From positions 267,719 to 331,718 of the forward strand of contig CAWJQC010000007.1 of NCBI GenBank assembly GCA_963844965.1: DNA of 64,000 nucleotides. Reading direction: 5' to 3'. Source of the stretch: an uncultured bacterium (lineage in GTDB: Bacteria > Patescibacteriota > Minisyncoccia > UBA6257 > 2-01-FULL-56-20). Below are positions 32,439 to 56,360 of this stretch, one piece after another. The notes under the pieces were generated by a model. That model worked only from the letters and a program-made list of their open reading frames with translations, was not told where the DNA came from and ran no database searches. Every line of letters starts with the position of its first letter. The stretch's first letter is position 1. The position numbers were made by a program, and so were the translations under genes.

Positions 32439-32510
32439 GGCGCATTCGTCTAGTGGCCAGGACAGGTGGTTCTCATCCACCAAACAGGGGTTCGATTCCC
32501 CTATGCGCTA
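32439..32510 (+). tRNA. tRNA-Glu (anticodon CUC)
   Basis: Acceptor GGCGCAT/ATGCGCT, D arm TTCGTCTAGTGGCCAGGACA nearly identical to E. coli tRNA-Glu, anticodon stem GGTGG/CCACC with loop TTCTCAT, T arm AGGGG-TTCGATT-CCCCT. An AT-rich palindrome sits upstream (32337-32438). Confidence 0.8.
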
Positions 32511-32641
32511 CATTCAGCTTTCGTTATCGAGGAGACGCGGTTGCGTCCATTTGTGCTACATTTTCCAAAGATGTTGGCAAGTAAATTAGAAGAGAGTAGG
32601 CTATATTGCGGATAGTAAAATAGCTGTTTCGATACAAAAGC

Positions 32642-34789: not shown

Positions 34790-36239
34790 ATCAATATATT
34801 TATTGCCGTCGCTGTATCATGGTGAAAGCCCCGCTGCTGCGACCGATATATCGACGATGCAGAGCTCCAAGGATATGTCGCACGCACTCTGAAACTCGTT
34901 GGATGTCTTTAGCGCAAACTCCTATTGATAGCATCATACAAAAACTTGCCGGATTATCCGTTCCGAAGCTAGTGAACTTTTATTCGGCCTTCAAGCTTAT
35001 GACCTTATCTCTCACCACAAACTTGCTCTTGATGAGCGAGAGTAATTCTCGTTTCTCGGTGGGATTACCGTCATTTAGTACATATGCTGCGTATCATCTC
35101 GCGTCGAATTCGGCATCATCCTGCTTTATCGCTCTCACACCTAGGAATGATTTCTGGAATTTGGCGACGCGTTTTGTTTCCTCGATAAAACGCTGTTTGA
35201 TATCGGACTCGTTAATATCCAATTTGCCAATTAATCGATAAGCTGTTTAGTGAGCTCATCTTCGCGCATATATTTGTTCTAACAGAACGTATCTCGCGAC
35301 CGACAGCAACCGTAGTAGACGTACTTGGTCGTCGTACCGTCTTTAAGCTTCTTGAATTTCTCCTGTGCGCTAATGGTCGACCCGCAGAGGCCGCAGGTGA
35401 ATAGTTTCGTAAAGGCGAATTCCTTGACCTCAGCATTTCTGAAAAGACTATCTTGCTTTAGTTGTTCCTGGGTTGCTTCGAATATTTCTCTTGTGATGAG
35501 TGCCTGATGTTTCCCGGTGTACCAGTTACCGCTCCCTACGGGGTATTCGAATACACCGTAATAAAAGGTGTTTTGGAGCAGCCGATAAAGATTGCCCAGT
35601 GCCAGATGTTTGTTGCCTGAATTTGTTCGGAAATTAACTTCAAATTTGAGCCAATGAAATAGCTTCCTGCCGCTCCAGCCATTGGCCACCTTCTCAAACA
35701 TCTGTTTAACGACCGGGGCGCGTGCGGGGTCGATTATGACGCTACCTTTACGATCGACACGTTTCTCGGTCAGATATCCAGTAGGAGCCTGCGCGGGCCA
35801 CAGCCCCATTTCGCAGCGCATCCGCAGTCCTCGCTTCACGTTTACACTCTTATTGTCGTTTTCAAGCTTCGCCTGAGAGCATAGGATCATTAGCAAGAAC
35901 TTTTCGTTCGGTGAGTTGGCAAATCTTTGTCCGTAAGTTCGGATCTCATGAGTAACTTCTGATCCATGAGATCCACGAGGATCTGAGGTCGCCCGCGTTC
36001 CTACTTAACCGATCCGGTGCCCATGTGAGAATTCCTGTATATCGGCCGCTTCTAATATCCTTCAAAATTTCCAGAAACACCGACCGCTCGCCTGAGCTTT
36101 TTGCCGAGTGGGATTCCCGCCGGATGTCGACAATTTCCAATGCTTCGCGTTCGGCGATAAGAAGCATCTCCTTAATTTGCGAATCAATGGAGAGAATCTG
36201 TTTTTCTTCCGACTCAGTGCTCTTTCTCGCATAAAGCAC
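34790..36239 (-). pseudogene. decayed large serine recombinase (homolog of the intact copy at 45417..47345)
   Basis: ORF 35946..36239 is the resolvase catalytic N-terminus (MLYARKSTESEEKQILSIDSQ…ILTWAPDRLSRNAGDL). ORF 35279..35896 is the middle (…MILCSQAKLENDNKSVNVKRGLR…KYVYYGC). The C-terminus is recognisable only in shifted frames at 34790-35278. It is divergent from the intact copy and out of frame. Confidence 0.6.
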
Positions 36240-36433
36240 GTATTTGACCTTTACCTCGGGCGGGATTGTTGTAGGGTCCCGCTCCCTGCGCCCCCGTGGT
36301 TTGGGTGGTCATACCACAATGGATGACGCAACCTCGCCAGAGAGTCCAGACCCCCTGAAAGACCCCAAAAGCCCTACCTAAGGCGAGCGCTAAATCGCTA
36401 TAAAAATCGTCTAAATTAAGCTAAAATGGTGCT

Positions 36434-42144: not shown

Positions 42145-42615
42145 ATGGACGCAACATTCGTAAAAGACCTCATCAAGGGGAAGATTGCCGAAATTATATT
42201 CGAGCAGATGTTTCGTGAGTCCGGCGAGTATACAATTCTCCATTCTGGCTATGAATATACCCTGCCCGAACTCGCGCAGTATCAACATCTCACCGAGATA
42301 AAAGCAGTGATTGAGAACATAAGGAATGCGCCAGATTTCGTTTTAATTTCGCAAGATAAAAAACGGGTTTATCTCGTGGAGGTGAAATATCGGCGCAACC
42401 GCAATCCGCGCGAGCTAAAAAAAATTTGTGAAAATACCCTTCAGATCTGGAATCCTTCGTGGCTTTTTGTAGCATCTCCTGATGGATTTTTCTTTGAGCC
42501 CTGCAACGATGTGGTCAACAAAAATGATGGGCAGATTGGACCCCTCTACGATAAGTGGGTAAAAAACGATGTTCAATCGGAATATCTGAAACTCCTGAAT
42601 CAGTTTGAGCTTTAA
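42145..42615 (+). CDS. small PD-(D/E)xK nuclease-fold protein (Hjc/restriction-endonuclease-like)
   Basis: 156 aa: …APDFVLISQDKKRVYLVEVKYR… gives a D…E-V-K arrangement with flanking strands consistent with a PD-(D/E)xK core. Confidence 0.4.
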   Translation: MDATFVKDLIKGKIAEIIFEQMFRESGEYTILHSGYEYTLPELAQYQHLTEIKAVIENIRNAPDFVLISQDKKRVYLVEVKYRRNRNPRELKKICENTLQIWNPSWLFVASPDGFFFEPCNDVVNKNDGQIGPLYDKWVKNDVQSEYLKLLNQFEL

Positions 42616-42622
42616 ATTGAGA

Positions 42623-44081
42623 TTAACCAATCTCTTTTTCCAAGTTCTCCAATATGCGTACCATCGCCATCGTGTCGAGGCCACAATAGAGCAGCATGTC
42701 CCGCTTGAGTTTTTCCTTTTCAGCTAGTGGCGTCTTGGAATCCGTAAGCCGCGGCCAGCTGACAGACGCCGTGCTCCCTTCCTGAATGGCGAGATTCTGA
42801 TACGAAAGTTCGGGCACGAGGACCGGGAGAATCGCCTTGATGGACGCGCTCCCATGGAAACCTTGCATCCACGAACATCTTTTTCTTAAATATAAGCATC
42901 AGGTCGTAGACGCGGTTGTTCACCGCCTCCATGAAATCGGCATATTCTGGATATTGCTCTCCGATCTCCTTATTCCTTGGCACTTCGAATGGAGCGAACC
43001 ATACGATGACAGTTCCTTTCGTGCCGATATCCGTTTTGAGTTGCGCCACCATCTCCGGAATGGGATTTGCGTCCTTCACCGCCAAAAACTCCTTTTGCTC
43101 CGCCTCGGCCTTGGGCGTTTTCTTAATGTGAAGTGAGTATTGAAAAACTATCTTCTGCCACGGACGCGTGCCGTCATAGGGTGGTATGGGTGAGGCAAAC
43201 GTTTCATAATCCAAAAAGTAGATTGGGTAAACGAGCGCCGCGAGTTCCTTTTTTATCATCGCGGCATCCATCGTTTTTTCCACTGGCGTATACCCAAGGC
43301 CACGCAGAAATACCGCAGAGAGCGAATTCGCGTCAAGAGTTCCTTTTTTCAACAAGCTGAGGGTGAAGGCTGGTGGCCAGTTCTTGACATCCAATTTTTT
43401 TGCCGGGGCCTTGGAGAGGTAAAATTCCAAGTGGTCGCACGAACCAGTCTTCGACTTGCACGAAAGGATAACGCGATTGTCCGGGAAGTCCTCGATGGCG
43501 AGGAGGGCGAGGGAATCTGCTATGCTTGTTTTAATCTCAGGCACAAGATCACGCGCCTCATCAGTCACATCCTCAGTTATAAAAAACTTCTTGGGCTCTA
43601 CGTTCCCTTTCCGTACATATTCATTGTTTACATGAATAATGAAAGTTTTCCCCACTTTGATGCCAGCTTCTTCAAAACAAATGAGCTGGAACGCAACATC
43701 GCGTAAGTCCTCCGGCCGAACCTTTGTTGCACTCTTCACCTCGCGGATATCGTAAGCATCCGCCGTTTGATCATAGGTCACAATATCTGCGCGGCAGGTC
43801 AATCCGGTCTTTGTGACGACGGTCGGCTGGAAAATAACTTTTTGTTTTTCGTCAAAGAGTGTTTTGCTTTTGCGCCAACCTTCCTCGTTAAAATCAAAAA
43901 GTTCTATGCCATCCTTATAGAGCTGCTTTGCGAGTATATCCACCTTTTCACCTTCCTGTTGATGGAAGATCTCTGATGCCGAGGGAAGCGGCATAAGATG
44001 TTTGCCTTTTCTCGCCATCCAAAGGTAACAACCGCATTCGAGAAAGTTCTTGTAGTCGGTCTTCGTGAACAGTTTAGCCAT
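42623..44081 (-). CDS. DUF2779 family protein (PD-(D/E)xK/Cas4-related nuclease superfamily), frameshift near 42870
   Basis: MAKLFTKTDYKNFLECGCYLWMA…, YFLDYETF, and a C-terminal block in ORF 42623..42868 (…GSASIKAILPVLVPELSYQNLAIQEGSTAS…YCGLDTMAMVRI) matching DUF2779 termini. Two ORFs overlap in different frames. Confidence 0.55.
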
Positions 44082-44377
44082 AGTTAGTTCTTCATTTCTA
44101 TCACGTTGAGCAGCTTTTCGCAAAAGATGAAGGGACGTCAGGAACCCTCAAAAAATATTGTCAAACTGGCTCCAAACGTGATACCTTTTAGGTAATTGAA
44201 TATCAGATAGATCGCCTAAACCACGCATTTTGCATGGCATGGCATTACGCAGAATCTCCCTTCCAGATACCAAACGCCACGTTTGGCGACTTCTGGAAGG
44301 GAGTCACTCCGAAAGGGGTGGGGCCGCAAGGCCCAAGCCAGCGTGGCGTTTTGTGTTCTCTATTTTAAAACAAACCC

Positions 44378-45289
44378 ATGGCCTTATTCTCCATCTCAAA
44401 CGGCAGCACGAAGAAAATATCATCCGTGAAAATCGGGCTTGAAAAAGACGTCCAAAAACTCTTCGAGAAAAACCTTGAGGAGATTTTGAATATCACATTC
44501 CTAGCATCAGAGTATTCAACGAGCTTCGGCGGACGAATCGATACGCTGGGTATGGATCATAACGGAGCGCCAGTGATCATTGAATATAAGCGGTCGCAAA
44601 ATGATAGCGTCATCAACCAAGGCCTGTCATACCTCCGATGGCTTCTTGATCACAAAGCGGATTTTGAAGCGCTGGCGCACCGATTAAAAATTGAGATTGA
44701 AATTGATTGGGCTTCTCCGCGCGTTATCTGCGTGGCCGAGAGTTACAATAAATTTGACCTCGATACCGCCGATCTTCTGCCGATGAACATAGAACTGTTA
44801 CGCTACAAGATTTATGAACAAAACATTCTTCTCGTTGAACCAGAAGTGCAACGCAAAATAAAAATATCCACGTCGGAAGTATTCGAGAAAACAACGCGGG
44901 AGAGGCACGAGTTTAAAGAACAGATCAAACACACCATCGAAGATCATTTGAAATCAGCAAATCCCGCCATCCGCGATCTTTTTGCCGCCATGAAAGAGAA
45001 AGTTCTTGCGCTTGACGAATCAATCAGCGAGGAGCCGAAAGCGCATTACATTGCCTACAAACTGGTGAATAATTTTGTGGATGTTGCGGTGCAAAAGGAC
45101 GCCTTAAAAATTTTCCTCAACATCACGAGCGGCGCGTTAAATGATCCGACATCTCTGGCCCGCGACCTTACTAAGCCGAAACCCGTTGGCCACTGGGGTA
45201 ACGGCGACTACGAACTCAAGCTTGATCAACGGGAAAATCTCAATGCTGTGATGGCGCTCATCAAGCAAAGTTACGAATACAACAAGTAA
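44378..45289 (+). CDS. NucS/DUF91-like PD-(D/E)xK nuclease-domain protein with uncharacterised C-terminal domain
   Basis: 303 aa: …GGRIDTLGMDHNGAPVIIEYKRSQND… resembles the NucS/EndoMS-type nuclease motif. It is preceded by a long perfect hairpin at ~44262-44330. Confidence 0.4.
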   Translation: MALFSISNGSTKKISSVKIGLEKDVQKLFEKNLEEILNITFLASEYSTSFGGRIDTLGMDHNGAPVIIEYKRSQNDSVINQGLSYLRWLLDHKADFEALAHRLKIEIEIDWASPRVICVAESYNKFDLDTADLLPMNIELLRYKIYEQNILLVEPEVQRKIKISTSEVFEKTTRERHEFKEQIKHTIEDHLKSANPAIRDLFAAMKEKVLALDESISEEPKAHYIAYKLVNNFVDVAVQKDALKIFLNITSGALNDPTSLARDLTKPKPVGHWGNGDYELKLDQRENLNAVMALIKQSYEYNK

Positions 45290-45416
45290 AGCCCTTGTTC
45301 AGAAATACTGAAAATCCCCGCTGTAAACCAGAGGAGGTTTTCGGTTTCTTTTTCCATCCGCCCTAAAATAGCGCGGCGATTTTTCGTGTTCAAAAATAAA
45401 CTAATTTATCATCACT

Positions 45417-47345
45417 ATGGCAAAACGAGGAAGACCGCCGAAAAATCAATTGACGGTCGCGCAACCAAAAACCGAATGTGCTCCGGACATGAGTAGTCTC
45501 AATAAGATGCCGAAGTATTGTTTGTACGCGAGGAAGTCATCGGAGAGCGAAGAACGGCAGGCACTCTCCATCGACTCACAGGTCAAGGAGATGTATAAGA
45601 TCGCGGAGCGCGATCATCTCTCGGTCGTTGAAGTACTGACCGAATCACACTCTGCAAAAAGCACCGGATGCCGACCGATCTTTAACCAGATGGTTATAGG
45701 TGTTAAGGATGGCCGCTTTGAGGGCATTCTTACCTGGGCACCGGATCGTCTGAGTCGCAACGCAGGCGACTTGGGCCAGCTGGTCGATCTTATGGACAAC
45801 GGCCATCTTGCGGAAATCCGCACGTTCGGGCAGATATTCAAAAATTCGCCCAACGAAAAATTCTTGCTTATGATTCTCTGCTCACAGGCGAAACTCGAAA
45901 ATGATAACAAGAGCGAGAACGTGAAGCGAGGTCTCCGTGCTGCCGCCGAGCGAGGATATCGCCCAGGCGTCGCACTTGTGGGATACACGAACAGTTATCG
46001 CAGGGATCATCCCGGCGAAGTGGTAATTGATAAACTGCGAGCCCCAATCATAAAGCTTATGTTTGAGAAAGCCGCAAATGGATGGTCAGCGCGGAAGTTG
46101 GTGGTCTGGCTTCGCGGTATCAACTTTACGACGCGCAACGGAACATATCTCTATCTAAGCAGTGTTCATACGCTGTTGCAGAACCACTTTTACTACGGCA
46201 CGTTCGAATACCCTCGGGGCAGCGGCGCATGGCACAAAGGAAATCATAAACCGCTCATTACCAAGGATATGTTCGACCGTGTTCAAGCGCAGATTGAACG
46301 ACGGCGCACCTCGCGCCGCTCGGAGCGGAAATCTTTTGGATTCACCCAGCTCATGCATTGCGGCATCTGTGGCTCCGGCGTTTCCGCCGAAGAAAAATTT
46401 AAGAAACTGGTAGACGGTTCACAGGCCCGCTATGTCTACTACGGATGCAATCGTTCCAAGGGGGTGAAGTGTACCAATACTTACATCCGTGAGGATTTTC
46501 TGGTCCGGCAGTTTGTGAACATCATCGACGAGATATCGCTCGACGAGCTTGGCATACGAAAACTTCTCGGCGAGGAAACTGAGCGTGTCTTTCGGTTTCA
46601 CAATGATGTCATGGGCGATCCTAACGCTTCGGAAACTCAAGAGAAAAAAGATATCGACATTAAAACCTACGCTAAATATCTACTCGCAAGAGGCAACGCC
46701 GAAGAAAAAAGATTACTACTATGCAACATTCAGAACCGACTGATCCTTCGGGATAAAGCCGTATATCTGGAAGAAGTAGGCGGTCTTACCTGGAAGGACT
46801 ATATTGGCCATATGAGAAAGTGCGCGAACTGCGGATCAAAAAACGTGAACGAGAGCGGACCGTATGCGAACTGGAAATTCGGCGATACGCCAATCGACGA
46901 CACGCCGCGGATCGTGTATTTCGCTTGTCTCGACTGTGAGCAATCGTGGAAGCAGGTCAACGAGAATATCTTGCGATTAATGCGCGAGTATGTGGTGGTG
47001 CCAGAGGGAAACGGGGCGTGGATTAAAACACCTGGCGGCTCGGAGTTTTTCGCGACGCCGTCTTTCGCCGCGCGGTTCAGAGACACGGTGGAGATAGACG
47101 GCAAAAAAGTGCCACCGAAAAAAATTCTCGGGGAAATGCTGTACTGGCCAGACAGGAACGCTTACGAGACGACGATCGAATATGACGACGGAAGCGAACG
47201 GACATTTGATATCCCAAGTCTTCGTGGCAGGAACAATACAGAAGAAGGCATGAAGCCGATCAGCAATAAGGATGGTCTTATGGAGTACAAAGAAGGTAAG
47301 ATGCAAACTTATTTCGGTCGCGGTCTCCAATATGACGGCCGATAA
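45417..47345 (+). CDS. large serine recombinase (phage-type serine integrase), intact
   Basis: 642 aa: resolvase domain (LYARKSSESEERQALSIDSQ…ILTWAPDRLSRNAGDL), recombinase domain, zinc ribbon (CGICGS…YYGCNRSKGVKC), coiled coil and a second C4 motif. Confidence 0.85.
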   Translation: MAKRGRPPKNQLTVAQPKTECAPDMSSLNKMPKYCLYARKSSESEERQALSIDSQVKEMYKIAERDHLSVVEVLTESHSAKSTGCRPIFNQMVIGVKDGRFEGILTWAPDRLSRNAGDLGQLVDLMDNGHLAEIRTFGQIFKNSPNEKFLLMILCSQAKLENDNKSENVKRGLRAAAERGYRPGVALVGYTNSYRRDHPGEVVIDKLRAPIIKLMFEKAANGWSARKLVVWLRGINFTTRNGTYLYLSSVHTLLQNHFYYGTFEYPRGSGAWHKGNHKPLITKDMFDRVQAQIERRRTSRRSERKSFGFTQLMHCGICGSGVSAEEKFKKLVDGSQARYVYYGCNRSKGVKCTNTYIREDFLVRQFVNIIDEISLDELGIRKLLGEETERVFRFHNDVMGDPNASETQEKKDIDIKTYAKYLLARGNAEEKRLLLCNIQNRLILRDKAVYLEEVGGLTWKDYIGHMRKCANCGSKNVNESGPYANWKFGDTPIDDTPRIVYFACLDCEQSWKQVNENILRLMREYVVVPEGNGAWIKTPGGSEFFATPSFAARFRDTVEIDGKKVPPKKILGEMLYWPDRNAYETTIEYDDGSERTFDIPSLRGRNNTEEGMKPISNKDGLMEYKEGKMQTYFGRGLQYDGR

Positions 47346-49127
47346 GCGTTGCCAGATGGCAAAATAACATCGCCGCTTCCGGAGGAATTGCTTGGAGTAG
47401 GGCTTGGCGGTGCACTTGCCGATGGAGATCCGTCGCTGGTCTCGGATGGTCCATTTCGCGGAGATGGTCCCAACGCCGCAGGCCGATGAGTACTGTCTGC
47501 GGAATTGTCGCCAGTGTTCGGCGGCGGTGGCGTAGAACGCGGAGCAAGACCCCATACTTGTAAATTGCCGAGGAGATCGGGGAGATTAACGCTGTAGCTG
47601 TCCGTGGGCAATGGCTCGGTATTTCTGCTGCGGCCCATGATCTCCACCTTGCCCGTATCCAGGTTAAGCCGCCCAATCACTGGCAACTGGCCATTCTCTC
47701 CAATCACGCTGTTCGCCATGAGGGTAAATGCGTCACAGAGGTCATCGAACCGCTCTATGCCAAATCCAATGAGCTGTTGCTTCAGGTGTGAATTCTCCGG
47801 GTCCGGCGCGAAGAGTATTGTGCCATTCTGAATAAGAGCGCTTGCGGTCATAAGCCGGGCGTGTTTGTCGGTGGCGATCTTTACGCCGATCACCCTGCAA
47901 TGTTTGGATTTTTCGAGGTACTCGATGGCCGACCGTTGATAGGCCACATCCTCGATCCGTATCTCGACCGCGCCGCAAAGCTTCGTGTACATATCATGGA
48001 GTTCCTTGAGGAGCTCCATCGTTTCAAGGAACGCCATCCTGCGGTTAATCGTCTTGATGACATACCCGTGGAAGTCCTTGCCGAATCCGGCGAAGAGGCC
48101 TACGACGATGCCCGTGTAATCAGCGGTTTCTTTTTCCGAGATCGCGAGGTCGACCCCGATGACCACCTTTTTGATTTTCTCTTTCGGCAATACTACCCAG
48201 TGCTTGATCCATTCCGCTTGGATCACGCGCTCGTCGCTCGTGACCGTTTGGAGTAAAAATTCCCTGCGCCACGTAGTGTCGTCACCGATCTTCCGTTTGA
48301 ACGCCTCAAGTGCCTCGGGCGTCTTGAACTTCTCTGGCCACTGGCATACGCCTTCATCGTCAACGAGCGGATACCGCCGAAAGACACCACCACGCTCGCC
48401 TTTTTTGATTTGCTCGATAACGCGGCCGAGCAGGGAAAATTCGTGCAAGAAATTCCCGATGAGAAAGATCTTTGTCTTTGTCGTGCCCAACGGAATTATT
48501 TCCGATACGAACCAGCTATAGATGCGATCGCGGTTTTCTTTTGTCCGCGTCCCTTGCAGATCTTGCGGATCGTCTACGATCACATAGTCCGGGCGGTATT
48601 GCTTGTAGCGCAGACCGCGCACTGCCTGTTGGGACGAGATCGCAATTATTTTTGCATCGAATTTCCTGAGGGTCATGCCGAACGCGCCGCTCTCGTCGCC
48701 CTCCATATCGATCGGTCCGAAATCATTTCTGAGGAGGGGCGATTCAAGCGCCTTGCGGATGTTGGAGAAATGCGTCCGCACCTGATGGAGCGTATCGGAC
48801 GCGATCACGATAAAGTGGGCGCGACCGCTGAGGATCAGACCACAGAGAGAATGACGTATTGAGAATCGCGCTCTTCCCGGAATTTCTGAATCCGGCGATC
48901 ACATAGAGATCATTGTCGTTCGACTCGGTAAGGCGAAACATATCTCGGTGAAAGTCCGCCATCGGGTCTTGGAGGTAGTCCGCAAGATAGATGTTAAAAA
49001 ACATCGCGTGCGACCACTGGCCAAGCTTGCGCCGCAGGAGGCGGCTCTTGCGGATGATGTCGATGAAGAAATTGAACTTATCGGCATTGTTACTGTTGTC
49101 ACTACTAGGAATTGGTAGGTTGTCCAT
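47309..49127 (-). CDS. phage terminase large subunit (frameshift near 48810-48850)
   Basis: ORF 48744..49127 has the ATPase Walker A GFRNSGKSAILNT. ORF 47309..48808 has VIVDDPQD (Walker B-like) and the RNaseH-like nuclease domain VIGVDLAISEKETADYTGIVV. The C-terminal ~90 aa is Pro/Ser-rich. Confidence 0.7.
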
Positions 49128-49503
49128 TTTTGTTTTGATTAAAGAGGTTTATATAATCTGCGGGGAACCCTGCGAGGCGGAGGGCTTCGCGGAGGAGTTC
49201 GACCTCCTCATCGGTCAGCTCTTCGCGCAGATTGACGGTTCCCGAAAGCTCAAGCCTGCTGCGATACTCATCCTTGTTATTCTTGAGCCAGAAGATCGCC
49301 GCTTGCAGCTTGCCTTGCTTGATCGCCGTAATGACCTGACTTTCCGCAACATCCGAAATGAGGCCTTTGCCGTCGATCATCGCTTGGTCCACCGCTTTTG
49401 CGAAGGCAGGGTCGTCCTGTTTGTATCGGTAGAACGTTGTCCTGCCAACGCCCGCCTTCGCTGCGGCTACTTCCACGAATCGGCGTTTTCTTGAGCGACT
49501 CAA
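49105..49503 (-). CDS. phage terminase small subunit (HTH)
   Basis: 132 aa, N-terminal HTH (AAAKAGVGRTTFYRYKQ), overlapping the terminase large-subunit start. Confidence 0.5.
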   Translation of the reverse strand: MSRSRKRRFVEVAAAKAGVGRTTFYRYKQDDPAFAKAVDQAMIDGKGLISDVAESQVITAIKQGKLQAAIFWLKNNKDEYRSRLELSGTVNLREELTDEEVELLREALRLAGFPADYINLFNQNKNGQPTNS

Positions 49504-49533
49504 GAATAACGTTTTTCTTTTCTTCTTGTGTCA

Positions 49534-50861
49534 TTAGATCTTTTGAGGCTTGATGCCTGTTATGCGCTCGACTCTTTTTAGGATCACGGTGAGGTACACC
49601 GGAGATTTCTCCATCAGATAACAGCGGCGTTGCATTTTTAATGCAGCAGCCCATGTGGATCCGCTGCCCCCGAATGGCTCAAGGACGAGGTCGTTGCGCC
49701 TCGTAAGCACCTTGATATAGGGAACCAGGATCTCCACGGGCTTCGTGCCGAAAATGACGCCCTGCCCGGAATTCTTTTCGTCCGAGGCGACATGCTCGAT
49801 GAAGTCCGTAGGGCAAAACTTTTTTCCTTTTTCGTAGGACTCCCATTGCGGTTTCCCCGAGGTGGCAAACAACGCGTTTTCGTACTCGTTCTGGAGCAGC
49901 TCATCGCCCTCGTCGTCAAGGTTCAGCACCACTTCACCGCCGGTTCCCACAAGCGCGATGTCGTGCTTGTTGAAGAATTTGTATTTCGCTGCAAAACCGG
50001 AGACACGATTCGGAAGATGCCACGTGATCGTGTTCCGATATTTCCAATGTTGTTCTAGGGCGTTCCATATAGTCCGTAGATTCTTCGGATTTTCGAACAC
50101 AATGATGGAGAAGTCTGGCTTTTGCACCTTGGCTACATTCGCCATCCAGAGATCCGTAAAATTCTCCGGCAGTGATTCCGTCTCGAGATACCTGCGATCG
50201 CGCTTCAAACCGAACCCCTCCGTCGCTTTGCCGTTGCGCTTCTTGCCGTGGAGGTAATCCAAAAGGTAAGGGGGGTCGGTGAAACAGAGATTCGCCCGCT
50301 CGCCGTTCATGAGTTTCATGATGTCGGCCTCTACTGTGCTGTCCCCACACATCGCCCGGCTGCCGTTCAGCTCGAACACGTCGCCCTTTTGAATCTCTAT
50401 CTTGTCGATCTGGAGCTTCTGCAACTCCTTCGCGAGGTCAAATTCTTCTGGCGTTTCATCGAGCGCGAAGATTTTATCCAACTCTTCGCTTGAGAACCCA
50501 ATATCTTTCAAGATGGATTCATCGAACTCTGCGAGGGCCGCGATATCAAATTCGCCCGTGTTTTTGTTCAGCCGAATTATGATCTCGGCCTCCTTCTCTG
50601 GATCAGGAACGTTGATACGAACGACAGGCACCGTCTCTACACCCATCTCGATCAGTACCTTTGCGCGGAAGTTACCGCCGAGGATCACGCCTTCGCGGCC
50701 CGGCGCACTGTTAATGACTAATGGATCGATTATGCCGTGGCGCTCGAGACTCGCGCAGTTGAGTGTTTGCCTCCTTGGTCCATAGGCGAGGGTTCCTTTC
50801 GGGATGGCGTAGCGAAGCGAGAGGAACGTAATCGATCTTCAACTTTTCTTGTATGTCTTGG
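49534..50861 (-). CDS. ParB-like nuclease domain / DNA methyltransferase fusion (phage-type), frameshift near 50760
   Basis: In a shifted frame upstream of ORF 49534..50688: MDQDIQEKLKIDYVPLASLRHPERNPR (ParB N-terminal motif). Then …LERHGIIDPLVINSAPGREGVILGGNFRAKVLIEMGVETVPV. MTase motifs CFTDPPY (IV) and LVLEPFGGSGSTWAAA (I). Confidence 0.7.
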
Positions 50862-50996
50862 TCCATGTTTTTATTAATTTATTTGTACGACTATATAAGT
50901 ATTGTTTCACTGAACTTCAGTGCTTTTAACTGCTTTTAGTTGCTTCCCTAGTCAAAAAGAATAGAAAAAATGAGCCGCGCAGAGCGGCCCAATCAG

Positions 50997-51623
50997 TTAC
51001 TCACAAGCAGACGGAAGAAAATTACTTTTGGAGCGGGTTTGTGAAAATAAACCCGTTGCGAGCCTTTTATTAATCACGGGTAGGCCGTCGGGGGTCTTCA
51101 TCGGAAATCCGCGTTTCTGGGACATCGGTTTATGCTGTAAGTGAGCGAGGGCATTTGTGATGCGCTTCCGCCTCTCATCCTTATTTGTGATGGAATTCTT
51201 TTTGCCCTCTTTCACAAAGTATCTATCGATCTTCTCATCAGACATAAAACCTTTCTCGTCCGCCTCGAAAAAAAGCGCTTTTACCAGGAGAACGTAAAAC
51301 GCTTCTTGGTCGAGAAAATCTATGACGTTGCCATTAGTGTAAAAGTTATTTTCCCAGTACTCAATGAGTCGTTTTTCTCCACGGCTACCGTTGGCACCGC
51401 CACCTCGCTCTTTTTGTTTCACAAGATCGGCAATTTCCTTCATGGTGGCATGGTCAAGATGTACCGGGCGCGAAAGAGGAGGGGCAATAAATAGCTGTGG
51501 CTCGAACATTTTAGCCACAGTTTCCATTAAGGGACGCCCTATTCTTTCTAACTCCGCCCTGCCCTCTGGGGTTTTACGTAACTCGCGGACCGTCATTTGT
51601 GACATATCTTTTTTTGTTCCCAT
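50997..51623 (-). CDS. hypothetical protein (prophage region)
   Basis: 208 aa basic protein with no recognisable motif. Confidence 0.3.
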   Translation of the reverse strand: MGTKKDMSQMTVRELRKTPEGRAELERIGRPLMETVAKMFEPQLFIAPPLSRPVHLDHATMKEIADLVKQKERGGGANGSRGEKRLIEYWENNFYTNGNVIDFLDQEAFYVLLVKALFFEADEKGFMSDEKIDRYFVKEGKKNSITNKDERRKRITNALAHLQHKPMSQKRGFPMKTPDGLPVINKRLATGLFSQTRSKSNFLPSACE

Positions 51624-51887
51624 ATCTCTATTCTAAAGGATTAGCGAGCAAATCTCAAAACCAAACAGGCAAAACCGACCCCCTTCAGTCCTAAGTAGAT
51701 GTTTCCGCGGGATAAGATATAATTCAATTTATGGCTAAAAAACCGGTTTCGTTTATCGCTACCAAATATAAGGACAAGCCTGTTAGGGTCAGTTTTTACA
51801 CAAAGAAGGGCGAACGGGTGAGTTTTGCAGCTGAAAAAAAAGTTCCCGTAAAAGTGCAGGTACGGTTCAAGGCTCGCAAAAAGTAGA

Positions 51888-52331
51888 ATGGCGAGCACTT
51901 TTGATTACCAATTTGGGCTGACGGAAATTGTTCCATCAAAACAAGCAGACGCAAAAGAAGGACAGAAAGTTGCCGCCTTCAAACAATTGGTTGATGAGCG
52001 AATAACGTCAGGGCTTCCCGGAGGGTTCCCATCAAAGAACGAAATCTTTATCGCCATATTACAGTTTTTTTCTGGCATAAAAGAATATCAAAGGCGTGAT
52101 ATCGATAATATCAGCAAAACGATTCTTGATTCCCTAAAGGGCAAGATTTATCACGACGATAGCCAGGTAAGGACGTTACTTATAAGCAAGAAGGTTTCTT
52201 CTCGCGTCCCAGTAAATTTTGTTTTCGTTGGCATCAGGGAACTGCACGGCGAAACCGACGTCGAAATCGTTCGGGCCACCATGATGGAACAGGCAGTTAC
52301 CCTGTATCAGACATCGGCAAAAGGACGCTAG
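51888..52331 (+). CDS. rusA: RusA-family Holliday junction resolvase (phage)
   Basis: 147 aa: …RRDIDNISKTILDSLKGKIYHDDSQV… matches the RusA DxDNxxKxxlDaL…DD motif. Confidence 0.55.
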   Translation: MASTFDYQFGLTEIVPSKQADAKEGQKVAAFKQLVDERITSGLPGGFPSKNEIFIAILQFFSGIKEYQRRDIDNISKTILDSLKGKIYHDDSQVRTLLISKKVSSRVPVNFVFVGIRELHGETDVEIVRATMMEQAVTLYQTSAKGR

Positions 52332-52344
52332 AGGTGGGCTTTCT

Positions 52345-52803
52345 TTACTGAAAGATTTCAGTGATGGGGATCAATGTGATTTCTCCTCCTTGCTCGATGT
52401 GTCCGCCGAATATCTTATTATCATTTTTATCAAAAACGCTTATATACACCCCGTCAGAAATTTTTCTCCTATCACCGCATTCAATTTCAAAAACTTCACG
52501 CACTGCGTCTTCGACGAACGCATTGGTGATTGTCGACATCTCTTTTGTTGTGGGCGTCGCCATAGCCCAAAAAGAACCTGAAATCCTCGAGTCCGGACCA
52601 ATCTCCGAGAGGAACACCTTTATGACTTTCGCCACACTAAATATCGGCTCATTGGAATTGAGAACTCTCTTGCACCTGTCGCATCTGAACTGAGCCAGGA
52701 TTATGCCAGGCCCAATCTTGCTACGATCTCCGACAAGCGCTTTGGCTTTTATGGTATCCGATTCTTCCAGGCAATTTCTACAAACCATATATTTTGCCTC
52801 CAT
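52345..52803 (-). CDS. hypothetical zinc-ribbon protein
   Basis: CRNC…CDRC near the N-terminus, no other motif. Start taken at the internal Met. Confidence 0.3.
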   Translation of the reverse strand: MEAKYMVCRNCLEESDTIKAKALVGDRSKIGPGIILAQFRCDRCKRVLNSNEPIFSVAKVIKVFLSEIGPDSRISGSFWAMATPTTKEMSTITNAFVEDAVREVFEIECGDRRKISDGVYISVFDKNDNKIFGGHIEQGGEITLIPITEIFQ

Positions 52804-53807
52804 TATAGCAGGATTTTTGCCTGGACTGGAACAGTGGGAATGGAACACGAAAAATCGACCCCCTCAGTCCCATTTGTTCCATTTTCTCCCCAAGGCCCCC
52901 CCCGACTCCCTTGCGTCGTTGGGCCTCCTAGGTCATCCTTAAAGGATCCTTATGGGGCTCTCACTGCGGTGGGTACCCCATGCGAGAGGCCTACAGATAC
53001 TCAAATAAAAATCCCCGAGGATGAAAAATGGTGTCATAGAAAAATTAAACGCCCATATATCCGGCGGTCTTCATTCTGAAGCTGATGTAGTATATGTGAT
53101 GGTGGAAATCAGAAAGTTATTGGAGCATCTAAGAATAAAGGGTAGGGATTATTCAGTGCTTGCTTTCTATTGCGACTGGGTATTGCACACTAGTCTAGAC
53201 AGATACGCCGGCTCAGATTGTATTAAAAAAAATAGAAAATAGTCTAAGTAAGAAAAATTATAGAAACGATGATCTTTTTTTGTTAGTTTCATTAGAAGAG
53301 TTGCAAAAAGAATTAAAAGTTTTTTCTGAGAAATATGGCCTTTGTCAAATTATTATTGGCACGGAGTGGAGGACTTTTCAAAAGTTTATGATCAATATTA
53401 TACAGGATGCGCCATTGGTTCGCTCAAGTTCGGATGGCTTAATTAAAGAATTCTCTATAACAAAGGCAACGTTTGGTTCTGGTAATAGTATTAATTGGAG
53501 TATAACCACAAGAAATGGAACGGTTATCACTGGGTGTTACGCCCTGACAAACATTCCTTTGTATCCTGATTTAAAATATAGATTTTACGCTCTTACGGCC
53601 GCAATTACAATAGCTTTTGCGTTATTACTATTAAAAATACTTTCTTTGTATTTATATCAACCCCACCTATAAAATCGTTCGCACATCACCTGCGATCACC
53701 AAGCAAAAAACTTTAAAACAAATGCTCTGCAAAAATCCCTCCCTTGCGCTAATATAATTTCAGTTATATAAGAGTAATAGACATATCTTTAGCGGAAGGA
53801 GTTCTAT

Positions 53808-54041
53808 ATGCCGTCAGTCGTTGTCTGGAATGGATTCGTAAAGCAGATTAGGATGGGTCTTGCGGTCGGCTGTCATATATGCGCGCGGGAGAATCCGAAG
53901 AAGAAGTGGACGCGCGACGATTTTAGCGCTCATTGCGCCGGTTGCAAGGAGGCTTACTGCAGGGAGCATGCCTCCGAGCGCGACGTTCGTTTTTGCGTCG
54001 CTTGCCGCCCGAATGGCGATTCTAAAGCCGGTTCCGGGTGA
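53808..54041 (+). CDS. small Cys-rich hypothetical protein
   Basis: 77 aa with CHIC…HCAGC…CREH…CVAC, located after an AT-rich segment (53000-53700). Confidence 0.25.
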   Translation: MPSVVVWNGFVKQIRMGLAVGCHICARENPKKKWTRDDFSAHCAGCKEAYCREHASERDVRFCVACRPNGDSKAGSG

Positions 54042-54125
54042 TAATACGAAAGATTTGGTTCCGCCGCGGTTTTGCCGCGGCTTTTTTGTTTTGCGACATT
54101 TGATTTAATAAAAAACCCGCCAGAA

Positions 54126-54608
54126 TCATGTAGATAGGCGGGCTAATCGTACCGCGCGCTTGAGGCTTATGTGTCTGCCGGCCGGTCTTTGGGCAAAATT
54201 TATTTTTATGTTTTTGCCATTTTTGTCGTATACGCCGAAATGGAGGTGGGGGTACCAGGCGTAACCGGTTTGGCCGCTCCGCGCAATCATTTGGCCGCGG
54301 CGCACCTTCTCTCCGACGCGAACCTTAACAGAATGATATTCAATGTGCGCGTAAAACGATTCCTCGCCGTCGGTATGTAGTATGACAATGGCGTTGCCCT
54401 TGTCGGCATCTTTTTCGGACACGAACGTCTTGCTGTATCTTGATTCTCGGAATGTCATGATTCCGGTCCGCGCGGCAATTATTGGTATGCCTTTCGGCAG
54501 GAAGAAATCTACACAGTGCTTGTAATCCGGGCTGGTTTTATGAAACGGAGCTGTTACTGTTATGACAGGTTTGCCGCGGAACGGCAAGGAATATTTTCTT
54601 CCGCTCAT
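54126..54608 (-). CDS. M23 family metallopeptidase (LytM domain; possible phage lysin)
   Basis: HTDGEESFYAHIEYHSVKVRVGEKVRRGQMIARSGQTGYAWYPHLHFGVY contains the HxxxD…HxH M23 signature. Confidence 0.65.
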   Translation of the reverse strand: MSGRKYSLPFRGKPVITVTAPFHKTSPDYKHCVDFFLPKGIPIIAARTGIMTFRESRYSKTFVSEKDADKGNAIVILHTDGEESFYAHIEYHSVKVRVGEKVRRGQMIARSGQTGYAWYPHLHFGVYDKNGKNIKINFAQRPAGRHISLKRAVRLARLST

Positions 54609-54707
54609 ACGCTTCTCCTGTGAAACTTTCTGCGAACATTATTGCATGAGAACACTGCGGCCGTCAATATTCTTTATTTACTTAATTCCGTGTGTTAAAA
54701 TAAGAGC

Positions 54708-56217: not shown

Positions 56218-56360
56218 GATTCTATAAGATTCTAACGGAATGAATCCCGTTAGAAATCGCGGACGCTTTTTGCCAATGGCATATTTACTGAACGGTCAAG
56301 ATATGGCAAACAATAAAGATAGGCGCGGATTTTTTTCGTCCGCGTCCTATTTCTAACGGG

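What the first reader, a model, noticed from the sequence alone, without database searches (positions are those of the whole stretch)
45417..54650. Prophage-like or satellite-like remnant: serine integrase, TerS/TerL, ParB-nuclease/MTase fusion, RusA, M23 peptidase, AT-rich segment, and no structural genes
Phage hallmark genes are present: integrase, both terminase subunits, a ParB-MTase fusion, a RusA resolvase and a LytM-type lysin. Capsid, portal and tail genes are absent, and the terminase and ParB-MTase genes carry frame disruptions. The segment sits between the defense island and the core gene tpiA. The 53.0-53.7 kb stretch is markedly AT-rich with only tiny ORFs. It could be a decaying prophage or a phage-satellite-type element that keeps packaging genes but borrows structural proteins.
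Basis: partly seen in the sequence, partly recalled or inferred. Interest (0 to 1): 0.55.

Follow-up and report, generated by a model that had tools for sequence, protein, structure and literature searches.

The report
Capsid-less terminase island in Patescibacteria
The flagged genes are not a rotting prophage but one copy of a widespread, apparently undescribed mobile island of ultra-small (CPR) bacteria that always carries a complete DNA-packaging enzyme and a serine recombinase, never any virus-particle genes, and ferries anti-phage defence genes, so it probably rides in the capsids of other phages.

Summary
All the reported genes are present: serine integrase, TerS, TerL, ParB-MTase, RusA, M23 peptidase, an AT-rich stretch, and no virion genes. 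The interpretation needs revision.

- **Frameshifts:** They are not evidence of decay. The same 1-nt shifts break essential core genes (secA at least 6 times, ftsI, murF), so they look like assembly errors.
- **Recurrent core:** ParB-MTase–TerS–TerL plus a large serine recombinase recurs collinearly in about 250 fetched loci, mostly Patescibacteria. None carries a portal or capsid gene cluster. Ka/Ks is 0.01–0.14, and the TerLs form a clade separate from portal-linked phage TerLs. Near-identical copies sit in unrelated flanks and end at tRNA genes.
- **Boundaries:** The window's island is larger than flagged, about 32.5–52.9 kb. The upstream "defence island" is its cargo, and a second, canonical recombinase (36275–34992) and tRNA-Glu close it.
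- **Recombinase layout:** The convergent 642-aa recombinase recurs in four independent relatives.
- **Genes outside the family:** RusA, the AT-rich gene and M23 are not family genes.

My best reading (about 0.5) is a new family of satellite-like integrative islands that bring their own full terminase and borrow capsids. Transfer itself is inferred, not shown.

The parts
32439..32511 (+). tRNA-Glu(ctc). Its 3' end faces the island, so it is the probable integration-site flank.
   Evidence: ARAGORN and Rfam. Relatives show the same geometry: a tRNA with its 3' end facing the recombinase, 0.14-6 kb beyond it. Of the 19 tRNA-bearing loci among the 60 scanned, 12 carry tRNA-Ser and 4 carry tRNA-Glu.
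32921..34547 (+). Cargo: AAA_13/PDC-S06-like ATPase, a candidate defence gene, read in two frames.
   Evidence: PADLOC PDC-S06 1e-30 and 1.6e-14 on the two pieces. The frame change is seen.
34992..36275 (-). SR2: canonical family-type large serine recombinase, co-directional with TerL at the far end of the cargo. It is interrupted by at least 3 frame changes and 2 in-frame stops.
   Evidence: ORFs; sequence. tblastn gives 65-81% identity to the island recombinases, covering aa 14-443 of the L002 recombinase.
36434..39225 (+). Cargo: MmeI-like type IIG restriction-modification enzyme, in three or more frame pieces.
   Evidence: PADLOC REase_MTase_IIG profile positions 3-136, 259-494 and 571-908 of 912 fall on three ORFs. 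Homologs occur in the cargo of L054, L083, L096 and L236.
39247..42112 (+). Cargo: DnaQ-like exonuclease plus DinG-like helicase. The exonuclease piece is in a separate frame.
   Evidence: PADLOC typeIV_DinG 8e-98. phrog_192 exonuclease 1.3e-13 on 39247-39468.
42145..42615 (+). Cargo: 156-aa protein of unknown function.
   Evidence: Homologs at 44-46% identity next to the islands in L040/L196 and L210.
42623..44123 (-). Cargo: DUF2779/Cas4-like nuclease. Its C-terminus is in another frame.
   Evidence: PF11074 6.7e-35. Weak PADLOC Cas4 hit. Frame change. Homologs occur in 8 related loci.
44213..44334 (+). LOOT RNA motif, directly upstream of the PDC-S18 gene.
   Evidence: Rfam RF03000, 58.4 bits against a gathering score of 46.4.
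44378..45289 (+). Cargo: PDC-S18 candidate defence protein (NucS-like N-terminus plus DUF5655).
   Evidence: PADLOC PDC-S18 3.9e-97. Pfam DUF5655. Homolog in L210.
45417..47345 (+). SR1: intact long-form (642 aa) large serine recombinase, convergent with TerL. The core is aa 22-451, followed by a conserved 190-aa C-terminal extension.
   Evidence: Pfam and PHROG hits. It is 52-55% identical to the canonical island recombinases. It is 68-75% identical over 92-97% of its length to the 590-628-aa relatives P0121-P0127. Those relatives sit in the same convergent position in L166/L167, L249 and L250.
47309..49127 (-). TerL (large terminase). There is a 1-nt shift near 48843. Homology ends at about 47519, and the tail to 47309 is probably read-through.
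   Evidence: phrog_38 3e-55. 60% identity to P0002 over aa 1-536. tblastn mapping. It keeps 52 of 53 family-invariant residues; the exception is E188Q. It lies inside the island TerL clade.
49105..49534 (-). TerS (small terminase, HTH). There is a 1-nt shift near 49480, and its ATG overlaps the ParB-MTase stop codon.
   Evidence: phrog_309 2.6e-08. 72% identity to the L002 TerS. Sequence.
49534..50866 (-). ParB_N plus N6/N4 DNA methyltransferase fusion, with a 1-nt shift near 50745.
   Evidence: Pfam and PHROG hits. 69% identity to the L002 protein and 71% to the L166 protein.
50997..51623 (-). 208-aa protein in the family's hypervariable slot just upstream of ParB-MTase. It is a possible regulator.
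   Evidence: The only homolog (37%) sits in the same position in L002-L004. It has no family hits. The slot is hypervariable between otherwise 91-99% identical elements.
51641..52848 (.). Left-arm accessory genes: an 85-aa gene (-), RusA resolvase (+, 51888-52331) and a 167-aa Zn-ribbon protein (-). They probably belong to the island but are not family core.
   Evidence: RusA PF05866 1.1e-11. None has a homolog in about 247 related loci. The composition break at about 52.86-53.0 kb follows them.
53021..53672 (+). AT-rich orphan gene (about 217 aa after joining two frames; C-terminal TM). Whether it belongs to the island is undetermined.
   Evidence: GC 0.33-0.39. Three-frame reading. No Pfam, PHROG or PADLOC hit.
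54126..54608 (-). M23 peptidase, most likely a host cell-wall endopeptidase and not part of the island.
   Evidence: PF01551. Its nearest NCBIfam models are the cellular enzymes MepM, ShyA and DipM. It has no homolog near any related island. It is adjacent to tpiA.

Best explanation
The segment is the packaging and recombination core of an integrative genomic island of about 20 kb (roughly 32.5-52.9 kb), lying between tRNA-Glu and the tpiA neighbourhood.

**Shown: membership of a large family**
- The island belongs to a large family found mainly in Patescibacteria.
- The family has an invariant collinear core: a variable small protein, ParB_N/N6_N4-MTase, an optional second MTase, TerS, TerL, 0-10 kb of cargo, and a large serine recombinase.
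- A divergently transcribed LexA/S24-type or small HTH repressor is often present.
- The element usually abuts the 3' end of a tRNA gene.
- It never carries portal, capsid, tail or lysis genes.
- The window's copy is of the 'long-recombinase' subtype. Here a recombinase of about 600-640 aa lies convergent with TerL, defence cargo lies beyond it, and a canonical recombinase of about 440 aa closes the element.

**Inferred: how it works**
- The element is a helper-dependent, satellite-like mobile island.
- On induction, through loss of the repressor, a serine recombinase excises it.
- Its own TerS/TerL holoenzyme recognises the element's DNA and packages it, probably as concatemers by headful, into procapsids supplied by a co-infecting tailed phage. 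Portal-linked TerLs up to about 48% identical to island TerLs exist.
- After injection, the recombinase integrates it next to a tRNA gene.
- The ParB-MTase self-methylates the DNA or assists packaging.
- The cargo slot carries restriction and other defence systems, which pay for the element's keep.

**Unresolved**
Whether this particular copy is still active cannot be told. The assembly is riddled with single-base indels.
For: **Recurrence and synteny**
- In the 84 genome loci analysed, 79 have ParB-MTase directly upstream. 58 have a C2-family recombinase downstream, and all 58 are on the TerL strand. The median TerL-to-recombinase gap is 1.0 kb, and 24 gaps are 300 nt or less. None carries a structural-gene cluster.
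- An independent set of 80 metagenome loci gives 72 ParB-MTase, 77 TerS, 44 of 44 recombinases co-directional, and 0 structural.
- 18 IMG/VR 'viral' contigs have the same layout. Contigs with more distant TerLs have TerL followed by portal- and capsid-like clusters that are absent from every island locus.

**Separate lineage**
- In an NJ tree, 90 of 91 island TerLs, including the window's, fall in one clade with 0 of 44 portal-linked TerLs.

**Functional, not decaying**
- Ka/Ks is 0.024-0.067 for TerL, 0.05-0.09 for TerS, 0.05-0.14 for the MTases and 0.012-0.08 for the recombinase.
- Walker A, Walker B and nuclease residues are invariant across the family.
- The window's TerL keeps 52 of 53 invariant residues.

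**Discrete mobile unit**
- L041 and L043 share a 7.6-kb block with 92-100% protein identity. It runs from a 65-aa HTH gene to the 3' end of tRNA-Ser. The two tRNAs have different anticodons, and there are no homologous flanking genes.
- L024 and L026 share 7.9 kb at 92% identity, running exactly from the ParB-MTase start to the recombinase end.
- The modules are mosaic: in L011 against L043, the recombinase is 96% identical but TerL only 61%.

**The window's layout is a recurrent subtype**
- L166/L167, L249 and L250 all show ParB-MTase-TerS-TerL convergent with a long recombinase, followed by defence cargo.
- L166 additionally ends with a canonical 446-aa recombinase.

**Cargo and regulation**
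- The window's cargo is type IIG R-M, a DinG-like helicase, PDC-S18, PDC-S06 and a Cas4-like nuclease. Several of these recur beside other islands.
- A LexA_DNA_bind plus Peptidase_S24 repressor lies upstream in 21 of 79 island-type genome loci and in 14 of the 80 metagenome loci.

**Possible helpers**
- Portal-encoding contigs have TerLs up to 48% identical to island TerLs.

**Literature**
- Searches found no description of such an element.
Against: - There is no direct evidence of excision, packaging or transfer. None of about 50 whole contigs, nor any of the 80 metagenome loci, has terminal repeats indicating a circle or concatemer.
- No replication module (primase or replicase) was recognised.
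- No att sites were identified. No repeat of the tRNA 3' end was found.
- No helper phage is identified, and the hosts of the portal-linked relatives are unknown.
- Known satellites that lack capsid genes carry TerS only. A satellite with TerL but no capsid has no experimentally verified precedent that I could find.
- In this copy the canonical recombinase carries about 5 lesions, and TerL has Q in place of an otherwise invariant E just after Walker B. The copy may therefore be inert.
- 18 of the 80 genome loci are labelled as non-Patescibacteria MAGs. I could not verify those labels.
Confidence: 0.5

Rival explanations
1. The element is a recombinase-mobilised defence or cargo cassette comparable to SCCmec. 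The terminase module is not used for the element's own transfer. Instead it acts against invading phages, for example by hijacking or cutting their concatemers or by occupying their procapsids. Under this reading the island is chiefly a packaging-interference defence island.
For: - The core is always linked to defence cargo.
- The nearest curated model for SR1 is the SCCmec recombinase CcrB, at 1.3e-36 but below its cut-off. The window has two serine recombinases, as SCC elements do.
- No replication genes and no circular forms were seen.
- Packaging interference is a known activity of satellites and of some prophage defences (titles and abstracts).
Against: - A full TerS plus TerL with conserved ATPase and nuclease residues, under Ka/Ks of about 0.03, is more machinery than interference needs.
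- Minimal elements of about 6 kb carry no defence cargo at all: MT-TerS-TerL-SR only, for example L021, L025 and L028.
- Near-identical copies in unrelated flanks show that the unit itself moves.
Confidence: 0.15
2. The element is an integrative element that spreads without phage particles, for example by natural transformation, which Patescibacteria perform. TerS/TerL and ParB-MTase would serve in excision, processing or protection of the DNA rather than in encapsidation.
For: - No capsid genes, no identified helper and no circular contigs.
- CPR bacteria are naturally competent (Wang et al. 2023, cited in PMC12366544).
- ComEC and DprA genes lie near some loci, which may be coincidence.
Against: - Terminases are known only as capsid-packaging motors.
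- The island TerLs are as close as 48% to portal-linked phage TerLs.
- They retain the complete ATPase and nuclease architecture.
Confidence: 0.12
3. This is the first reader's main reading: a decaying or cryptic prophage that has lost its structural genes by deletion.
For: - Phage hallmark genes are present without virion genes.
- Several frame disruptions are seen.
- SR2 carries about 5 lesions.
- TerL has the E188Q substitution.
Against: - The same minimal gene set and order occur in about 250 loci, with 0 structural clusters.
- The core genes are under purifying selection.
- The island TerLs form a monophyletic clade.
- The mobile units are discrete, at 6-8 kb.
- Frameshifts are equally dense in essential secA, ftsI and murF.
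Confidence: 0.05
4. The element is one half of a split, GTA-like or domesticated system, with the head and tail genes lying elsewhere in the same genomes.
For: Only 10 kb on each side of each locus was examined.
Against: - Distribution is patchy and mosaic, the elements sit next to tRNAs, and near-identical copies lie in unrelated flanks. All of this indicates a mobile element, not a fixed host system.
- An integrase is an invariant core gene.
- In this window the island is bounded by core genes on both sides.
Confidence: 0.06

Closest known systems
Phage-inducible chromosomal islands (PICI/SaPI)
   Same: They are small integrative islands (median 9.5 kb) with an integrase, a repressor-type regulator and their own TerS to redirect packaging. 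They carry no tail or lysis genes, have accessory or defence cargo at fixed slots, and depend on a helper phage (PMC10085698).
   Different: - PICIs use tyrosine integrases, carry a primase-replicase module and often a capsid-morphogenesis gene, and rely on the helper's TerL.
- Here the integrase is a large serine recombinase, often present twice.
- No replication or capsid-remodelling gene is recognisable.
- TerL and a ParB-MTase are invariant core genes.
Capsid-forming PICIs (cfPICI)
   Same: They are the only described satellites that encode both TerS and TerL (PMC10085698; 10.1101/2022.09.08.507074).
   Different: cfPICIs also encode capsid, protease, portal and head-tail adaptor or connector proteins, for 11 core components, and steal only tails. 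None of these is present in any of about 250 loci.
SCCmec-type cassettes mobilised by Ccr large serine recombinases
   Same: They carry cargo, are excised and integrated by large serine recombinases (often two) at a specific chromosomal site, and have no transfer machinery of their own. The best curated match for SR1 is CcrB.
   Different: SCC elements carry no terminase or ParB-MTase module and are confined to staphylococci. The CcrB match is far below the model cut-off (126 bits against 900).
Temperate tailed phages with serine integrases (phiC31, Bxb1, A118 type) and their cryptic remnants
   Same: They share the large serine recombinase, the TerS/TerL of the Terminase_6/psiM2_ORF9 type, the MTase upstream of the terminase, the S24 repressor and RusA.
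   Different: They have complete virion, lysis and replication modules. Remnants are idiosyncratic, not a conserved 4-gene core under selection. The closest GenBank phage TerL is at most 26% identical.
Minimal marine satellites and tRNA-targeting cargo elements (PICMI, VEIMEs, tycheposons); comparison from my own knowledge, not tested here
   Same: They are very small integrative elements with few core genes, flexible cargo and tRNA-adjacent integration, and are presumed to be packaged as concatemers in helper capsids.
   Different: As far as I recall, none has a TerS-TerL-ParB-MTase core with a serine recombinase, and none is reported from Patescibacteria.

Membership tests
ParB-MTase-TerS-TerL-serine-recombinase island family (defined here) | Collinear ParB_N/N6_N4-MTase, TerS and TerL on one strand | tested here: met
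   Window 50866 to about 47490 on the minus strand. The proteins are 69%, 72% and 57-75% identical to the syntenic L002 proteins. 79 of 84 genome loci and 72 of 80 metagenome loci have the same arrangement.
ParB-MTase-TerS-TerL-serine-recombinase island family (defined here) | C2-family large serine recombinase downstream of TerL, on the same strand, after a cargo slot | tested here: met
   SR2 at 36275-34992 is co-directional with TerL and 65-81% identical to the family recombinases. It is interrupted by about 5 lesions of uncertain reality.
ParB-MTase-TerS-TerL-serine-recombinase island family (defined here) | TerL belongs to the island TerL clade | tested here: met
   The window's TerL lies inside the clade holding 90 of 91 island TerLs and 0 of 44 portal-linked TerLs.
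ParB-MTase-TerS-TerL-serine-recombinase island family (defined here) | No portal, capsid, tail or lysis genes in the element | tested here: met
   There are no such hits between 32.5 and 54.1 kb. The island is bounded by the dcw cluster and tRNA-Glu on one side and tpiA on the other.
ParB-MTase-TerS-TerL-serine-recombinase island family (defined here) | Long-recombinase subtype: a recombinase of 590-640 aa convergent with TerL, with cargo beyond it | tested here: met
   SR1 is 68-75% identical to P0121-P0127. The same layout occurs in L166/L167, L249 and L250.
Temperate tailed prophage (intact or remnant) | Virion module (portal, major capsid, tail) contiguous with the terminase | tested here: not met
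   It is absent in the window and in about 250 relatives. It is present only in the more distant TerL relatives.
Temperate tailed prophage (intact or remnant) | Remnants are idiosyncratic and under relaxed selection | tested here: not met
   Synteny is conserved, and Ka/Ks is 0.01-0.14 for all four core genes.
PICI | Integrase plus regulator (Stl/AlpA/MerR-like) | tested here: inconclusive
   An integrase is present but of the serine type. LexA/S24 or small HTH regulators occur in relatives, but none was recognised in the window.
PICI | Primase-replicase module | tested here: not met
   No primase or replicase hit was found in the window island or in the conserved clusters.
PICI | TerS only; the helper supplies TerL | tested here: not met
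   TerL is an invariant core gene.
cfPICI | Own capsid, protease, portal and head-tail adaptor or connector in addition to terS and terL | tested here: not met
   There are no such genes. The definition is taken from PMC10085698.
Large serine recombinase (integrase) family | Resolvase catalytic domain, Recombinase domain and zinc beta-ribbon | tested here: met
   SR1 matches all three Pfam domains above their cut-offs. SR2 aligns over the same domains.
Large serine recombinase (integrase) family | Defined attL/attR pair and demonstrated excision | not testable with these tools
   No att sites could be identified. The inverted repeat at 45370-45391 and 52843-52864 (15-nt perfect core) is at chance level, with about 0.2 expected, and has no partner in L166. 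No reads are available.
Gene transfer agent | Head-tail structural cluster, no integrase, vertical inheritance | tested here: not met
   There is no structural cluster. An integrase is core. Distribution is mosaic and mobile. Unlinked structural loci could not be excluded.

The most novel reading that the evidence does not exclude
These islands would be a new, phylum-wide family of phage satellites in Patescibacteria, best described as 'terminase-only' satellites. Such a satellite brings a complete TerS/TerL packaging enzyme and a serine integrase, steals whole procapsids and tails from helper phages, and serves as the main vehicle that moves restriction and other defence systems between these ultra-small bacteria. 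This would be the first satellite system in the CPR and a hijacking strategy intermediate between PICI and cfPICI.
Probability: 0.4. Interest if true: 0.85.

Novelty: new variant of a known kind. Interest (0 to 1): 0.7.

Why it matters
Almost nothing is known about the phages, satellites and gene flow of Patescibacteria. [quoted passage not shown]

- **A tractable handle.** A conserved four-gene core that is easy to recognise and present in hundreds of genomes gives a way to study how defence systems and other cargo move in this phylum.
- **A source of misannotation.** Automated tools call 'prophages' or 'viral contigs' in CPR genomes from a lone terminase. Eighteen IMG/VR contigs examined here are in fact these islands.
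- **A testable packaging strategy.** If the satellite reading holds, it adds a new packaging-hijack strategy: the element's own complete terminase combined with borrowed capsids. This can be tested in the few cultivable Saccharibacteria.
- **New recombinases.** The family also supplies two new clades of large serine recombinases, some with tRNA-adjacent targets, which may be useful as genome-engineering tools.

Tried and rejected
- **Source-contig look-ups.** Exact-protein look-ups of the window's SR1, RusA, P0001 and P0241 found nothing. Only tpiA gave a hit, a 3.2-kb short-read contig (L001) that is 99.87% identical to 53206-56360. It starts inside the AT-rich gene, so it does not resolve the boundary or the frameshifts.\n- **att search.** Direct and inverted repeats over 33-55 kb gave only chance-level pairs. 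The suggestive inverted repeat upstream of SR1 and after the 167-aa gene is not conserved in other loci and has no partner in L166. A k-mer search downstream of the recombinases found only tRNA T-loops. No second copy of the tRNA 3' end occurs in 17 loci. The tRNA-Glu-side ends of 5 loci do not align.\n- **Circular or excised forms.** There are no terminal repeats in 49 whole contigs or in the 80 metagenome loci.\n- **First frame-switch detector.** My first codon-usage detector reported nothing because of its segment filters. I replaced it with an open-frame/Kadane version.\n- **The 208-aa protein.** The homolog search returned only the protein itself, so I did not attempt a structure prediction.\n- **The GC-rich spacer 52860-53009.** It is not a convincing structured RNA (z -1.8 and -0.75; no Rfam hit).\n- **Rejected: a rearranged or inverted one-off copy.** I considered this because SR1 is convergent with TerL. 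The layout recurs in L166/L167, L249 and L250.\n- **Dropped: SR2 as a definite pseudogene.** Its lesion density, about 3.8 per kb, is matched by essential secA at about 3 per kb.\n- **Literature.** Six full-text searches and five papers gave no description of this element.

Full report
**1. The observation**

- The 642-aa ORF at 45417-47345 has the three domains of a large serine recombinase and matches phrog_95 (integrase) at 3.4e-65.
- On the minus strand lie TerL, TerS and a ParB-like/N6_N4 methyltransferase fusion. TerL matches phrog_38 at 3e-55 and the TIGR01630 domain above its cut-off. TerS matches phrog_309 at 2.6e-08.
- RusA is at 51888-52331 and an M23 peptidase at 54608-54126.
- GC drops to 0.33-0.39 at 53.0-53.75 kb.
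- No ORF between 32.5 and 54.1 kb hits any portal, capsid, tail or holin family.

Reading the three frames shows one extra base in each of three genes. The rebuilt TerL aligns end to end with an intact relative, 60% over 536 aa. tblastn with intact relatives maps all three genes across the shifts. The 'tiny ORFs' of the AT-rich stretch join into one orphan gene of about 217 aa.

**2. The frameshifts are not evidence of decay**

The same kind of single-base shift splits essential genes in the window.
- The transpeptidase domain of FtsI is divided between two ORFs. Pfam positions 1-43 fall on one and 51-286 on the other, and the shift lies inside the SxxK motif.
- The C-terminal domain of MurF is divided the same way, positions 2-50 and 56-127.
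- A codon-usage segmentation and the three-frame translation show SecA (60.44-63.1 kb) running through at least six frame changes.
- The cargo genes (type IIG R-M, the DinG-like helicase, DUF2779, PDC-S06) are split too.

A cell cannot live with these lesions, so they are most simply assembly errors. They cannot be used to call the terminase or methylase genes pseudogenes. The second recombinase (see section 4) has about 5 lesions in 1.3 kb, including two in-frame stops. SecA shows a similar density, so even that call is unsafe.

**3. The same module elsewhere**

The closest TerL (P0002, 60%) and another relative (P0008) lie on Patescibacteria contigs of 320-350 kb. In both, the order is small protein, ParB-MTase, TerS, TerL. 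Serine recombinases and restriction-modification genes are nearby, and there is no portal.

I scanned species-representative genomes with a TerL alignment. The scan found more than 479 relatives, and 80 loci were fetched with 10-kb flanks. After ORF calling and all-against-all clustering, the 84 genome loci analysed (these 80 plus L002-L005 from the look-ups) gave:
- 79 of 84 loci with ParB-MTase directly upstream of TerL, and about half with a second 257-aa MTase.
- 58 loci with a recombinase of one family about 440 aa long downstream. All 58 are on the TerL strand, after a variable slot with a median of 1.0 kb, and the recombinase is directly adjacent in 24.
- 13 of the 21 loci without a downstream recombinase simply end too early.
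- 21 loci with a divergently transcribed LexA_DNA_bind/Peptidase_S24 repressor upstream.
- No cluster resembling structural genes.

A scan of IMG/VR split cleanly. Contigs whose TerL is at least about 35% identical have the island layout. Contigs with more distant TerLs have TerL followed by a portal-like protein of about 700 aa and capsid-like clusters, which occur in 0 island loci.

A third, independent scan of metagenome contigs gave 80 more loci with 72 ParB-MTase, 77 TerS, 44 of 44 co-directional recombinases and no structural hits.

In an NJ tree the island TerLs form one clade: 90 of 91, including the window's, with none of the 44 portal-linked TerLs. GenBank phage TerLs are at most 26% identical.

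**4. The window re-read in this light**

Upstream of the flagged region, on the TerL strand, lies a second recombinase (36275-34992). It is 65-81% identical to the family's canonical enzyme and sits in the canonical position.

They are a type IIG R-M enzyme, an exonuclease/DinG-like helicase, a Cas4-like DUF2779 nuclease, a PDC-S18 protein and, beyond the recombinase, a PDC-S06 ATPase. Several have homologs beside other islands.

A tRNA-Glu lies 2.5 kb beyond the recombinase with its 3' end facing it. This is the geometry seen in relatives, mostly with tRNA-Ser and also with tRNA-Glu. The island therefore runs from about 32.5 kb to at least 51.6 kb. It probably extends to the composition break at about 52.9 kb.

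The 642-aa recombinase inside the flagged region (SR1) is only 52-55% identical to the canonical type and is convergent with TerL. No locus in the first 160 shows that arrangement. It is nevertheless a genuine subtype.
- Relatives of 590-628 aa share the 190-aa C-terminal extension at 68-75% identity.
- In four of five contexts examined (L166, its near-duplicate L167, L249 and L250) they sit convergent with TerL of a ParB-MTase-TerS-TerL module, with defence cargo beyond.
- L166 also ends with a canonical 446-aa recombinase, exactly as in the window.
- In the fifth context, L168, the long recombinase ends the LexA-led left operon.

RusA, the 85-aa and 167-aa genes, the AT-rich gene, the 77-aa gene and M23 have no homolog in any of about 247 related loci. 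The first three are plausibly accessory genes of the island's left arm. M23 resembles cellular endopeptidases and adjoins tpiA.

**5. Is the family alive and mobile?**

*Selection.* Pairs of related elements give Ka/Ks of 0.024-0.067 for TerL and 0.01-0.14 for the other core genes. The Walker A, Walker B and nuclease residues are invariant. The window's TerL keeps 52 of 53 invariant positions. The exception is E188Q, just after the Walker B DD, which may be a real inactivating change or another base error.

*Discrete units in unrelated flanks.*
- L041 and L043 share a 7.6-kb block at 91% nucleotide identity. It starts at the 3' end of a 65-aa HTH gene and ends in the 3' part of tRNA-Ser genes with different anticodons. 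No other gene in the flanks is homologous.
- L024 and L026 share 7.9 kb at 92%, running exactly from the ParB-MTase start to the recombinase stop.

*Mosaicism and the hypervariable slot.* In L011 against L043 the recombinase is 96% identical but TerL only 61%. In both pairs above, the single gene just upstream of ParB-MTase is only 26-40% identical while everything else is 91-100%. The window's 208-aa protein occupies that slot, and its only homolog sits in the same slot in L002.

**6. Mechanism**

What is shown:
- The element is integrative, tRNA-adjacent and recombinase-bearing.
- It has a conserved and selected complete terminase, a methylase, often an SOS-type repressor, and a cargo slot.
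- It has no virion, lysis or recognisable replication genes.

What I infer is that it behaves like a phage satellite.
1. Derepression occurs.
2. A serine recombinase excises the element.
3. The element's own TerS/TerL packages it into a helper phage's procapsids.
4. After injection it reintegrates.

Portal-encoding contigs with TerLs up to 48% identical to island TerLs exist, so compatible portals are plausible.

The weak points are these:
- No circular or concatemeric contigs were found.
- No att sites were found.
- No replication gene and no identified helper are known.
- No precedent exists for a capsid-less satellite that carries TerL.

I give the satellite mechanism about 0.5. The rivals are a packaging-interference or SCC-like defence cassette, particle-independent spread, a split GTA-like system, and a decaying prophage, in that order.

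**7. Comparison with known systems**
- The element works most like a PICI. It fails PICI's defining tests on the replication module, on TerS-only packaging and on the tyrosine integrase.
- It shares TerS plus TerL with cfPICI but lacks all of their capsid, portal and connector genes (definitions from PMC10085698).
- It resembles SCC cassettes in being a cargo unit driven by serine recombinases.
- Full-text searches found no paper describing a ParB-MTase-TerS-TerL-serine-recombinase island in Patescibacteria. The library is incomplete, so prior description cannot be excluded.

**8. Verdict**
- The 'decaying prophage' reading is not supported.
- I rate it a new variant of a known kind (satellite-like integrative islands), with interest 0.7.

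Noticed in passing
window 60440-63100 (secA); 29369-31004 (ftsI); 31049-32336 (murF); candidates at about 26845 and about 10350: Single-base frame changes are pervasive in essential core genes. SecA alone changes frame at least six times. The contig appears to be an unpolished or low-coverage assembly, so any pseudogene call in this window is unsafe.
   Followed up: yes
window 22006-22129 (+) and 44213-44334 (+): There are two copies of the LOOT RNA motif (RF03000; 84 and 58 bits). The second lies directly upstream of the PDC-S18 defence-candidate gene inside the island cargo. The first lies upstream of a 532-aa ORF (22189-23787) in a lower-GC stretch.
   Followed up: no
L024 6151-9344; L026 9899-13092; also L037, L048, L094: Some islands carry two tandem TerL paralogs (about 537 and 520 aa). 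Both are under strong purifying selection, with Ka/Ks 0.024 each.
   Followed up: partly
L041 6494-7457 vs L043 6542-7450; L024 2402-3589 vs L026 6214-7347; window 50997-51623: The gene immediately upstream of ParB-MTase is hypervariable. It is 26-40% identical between elements whose other genes are 91-100% identical. Some versions end in a weak OmpR-type winged helix. This recalls the divergent helper-sensing regulators of other satellites.
   Followed up: partly
window about 48565 (TerL residue 188): The window's TerL has Gln where all 25 aligned relatives have Glu, two residues after the Walker B Asp-Asp. This is either a real ATPase-inactivating change or a base error.
   Followed up: partly
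window 45370-45391 and 52843-52864: An inverted repeat with a 15-nt perfect core (CGATTTTTCGTGTTC) lies just upstream of SR1 and just beyond the 167-aa gene, bracketing SR1 through RusA. It is at chance level statistically. The left arm overlaps a stretch conserved upstream of the long recombinase in L166, which may be a promoter or operator.
   Followed up: partly
L086-L101, L103, L120 (IMG/VR UViGs): Eighteen contigs catalogued as viral genomes have the island layout (MTase-TerS-TerL-cargo-recombinase) and no virion genes. They are probably these islands, misclassified because of the terminase.
   Followed up: yes
L005 3722-6117; L071, L083, L022; L168 4868-11779: The LexA-like repressor leads a leftward operon in many islands. 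It contains metallo-beta-lactamase-fold proteins, a multi-pass membrane protein and a Zn-ribbon protein of about 360 aa. In L168 it instead contains DUF2188, DUF8370/8371, a large helicase and the long recombinase. The function is unknown.
   Followed up: partly
L010, L012-L015, L023, L027, L028, L041, L043, L058, L063, L066, L067, L076, L077, L079, L083: Eighteen of the 80 genome loci come from MAGs labelled Gammaproteobacteria, Bdellovibrionales and similar, mostly from one co-assembly project. Their islands are up to 77-85% identical in nucleotides to islands in Patescibacteria-labelled MAGs. The cause may be mislabelling or mis-binning, or a wider host range.
   Followed up: no
window 53021-53672: This AT-rich orphan gene is about 217 aa after joining two frames. 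It has a C-terminal transmembrane helix and no match in Pfam, PHROGs or PADLOC. It lies between the island's left arm and the host M23/tpiA genes.
   Followed up: partly
L013, L039, L053, L058, L070, L081 cargo: Besides defence systems, several islands carry a CsoR-type metal repressor with a large P-type-ATPase-sized protein and a DUF305-like protein. This looks like metal-resistance cargo.
   Followed up: no
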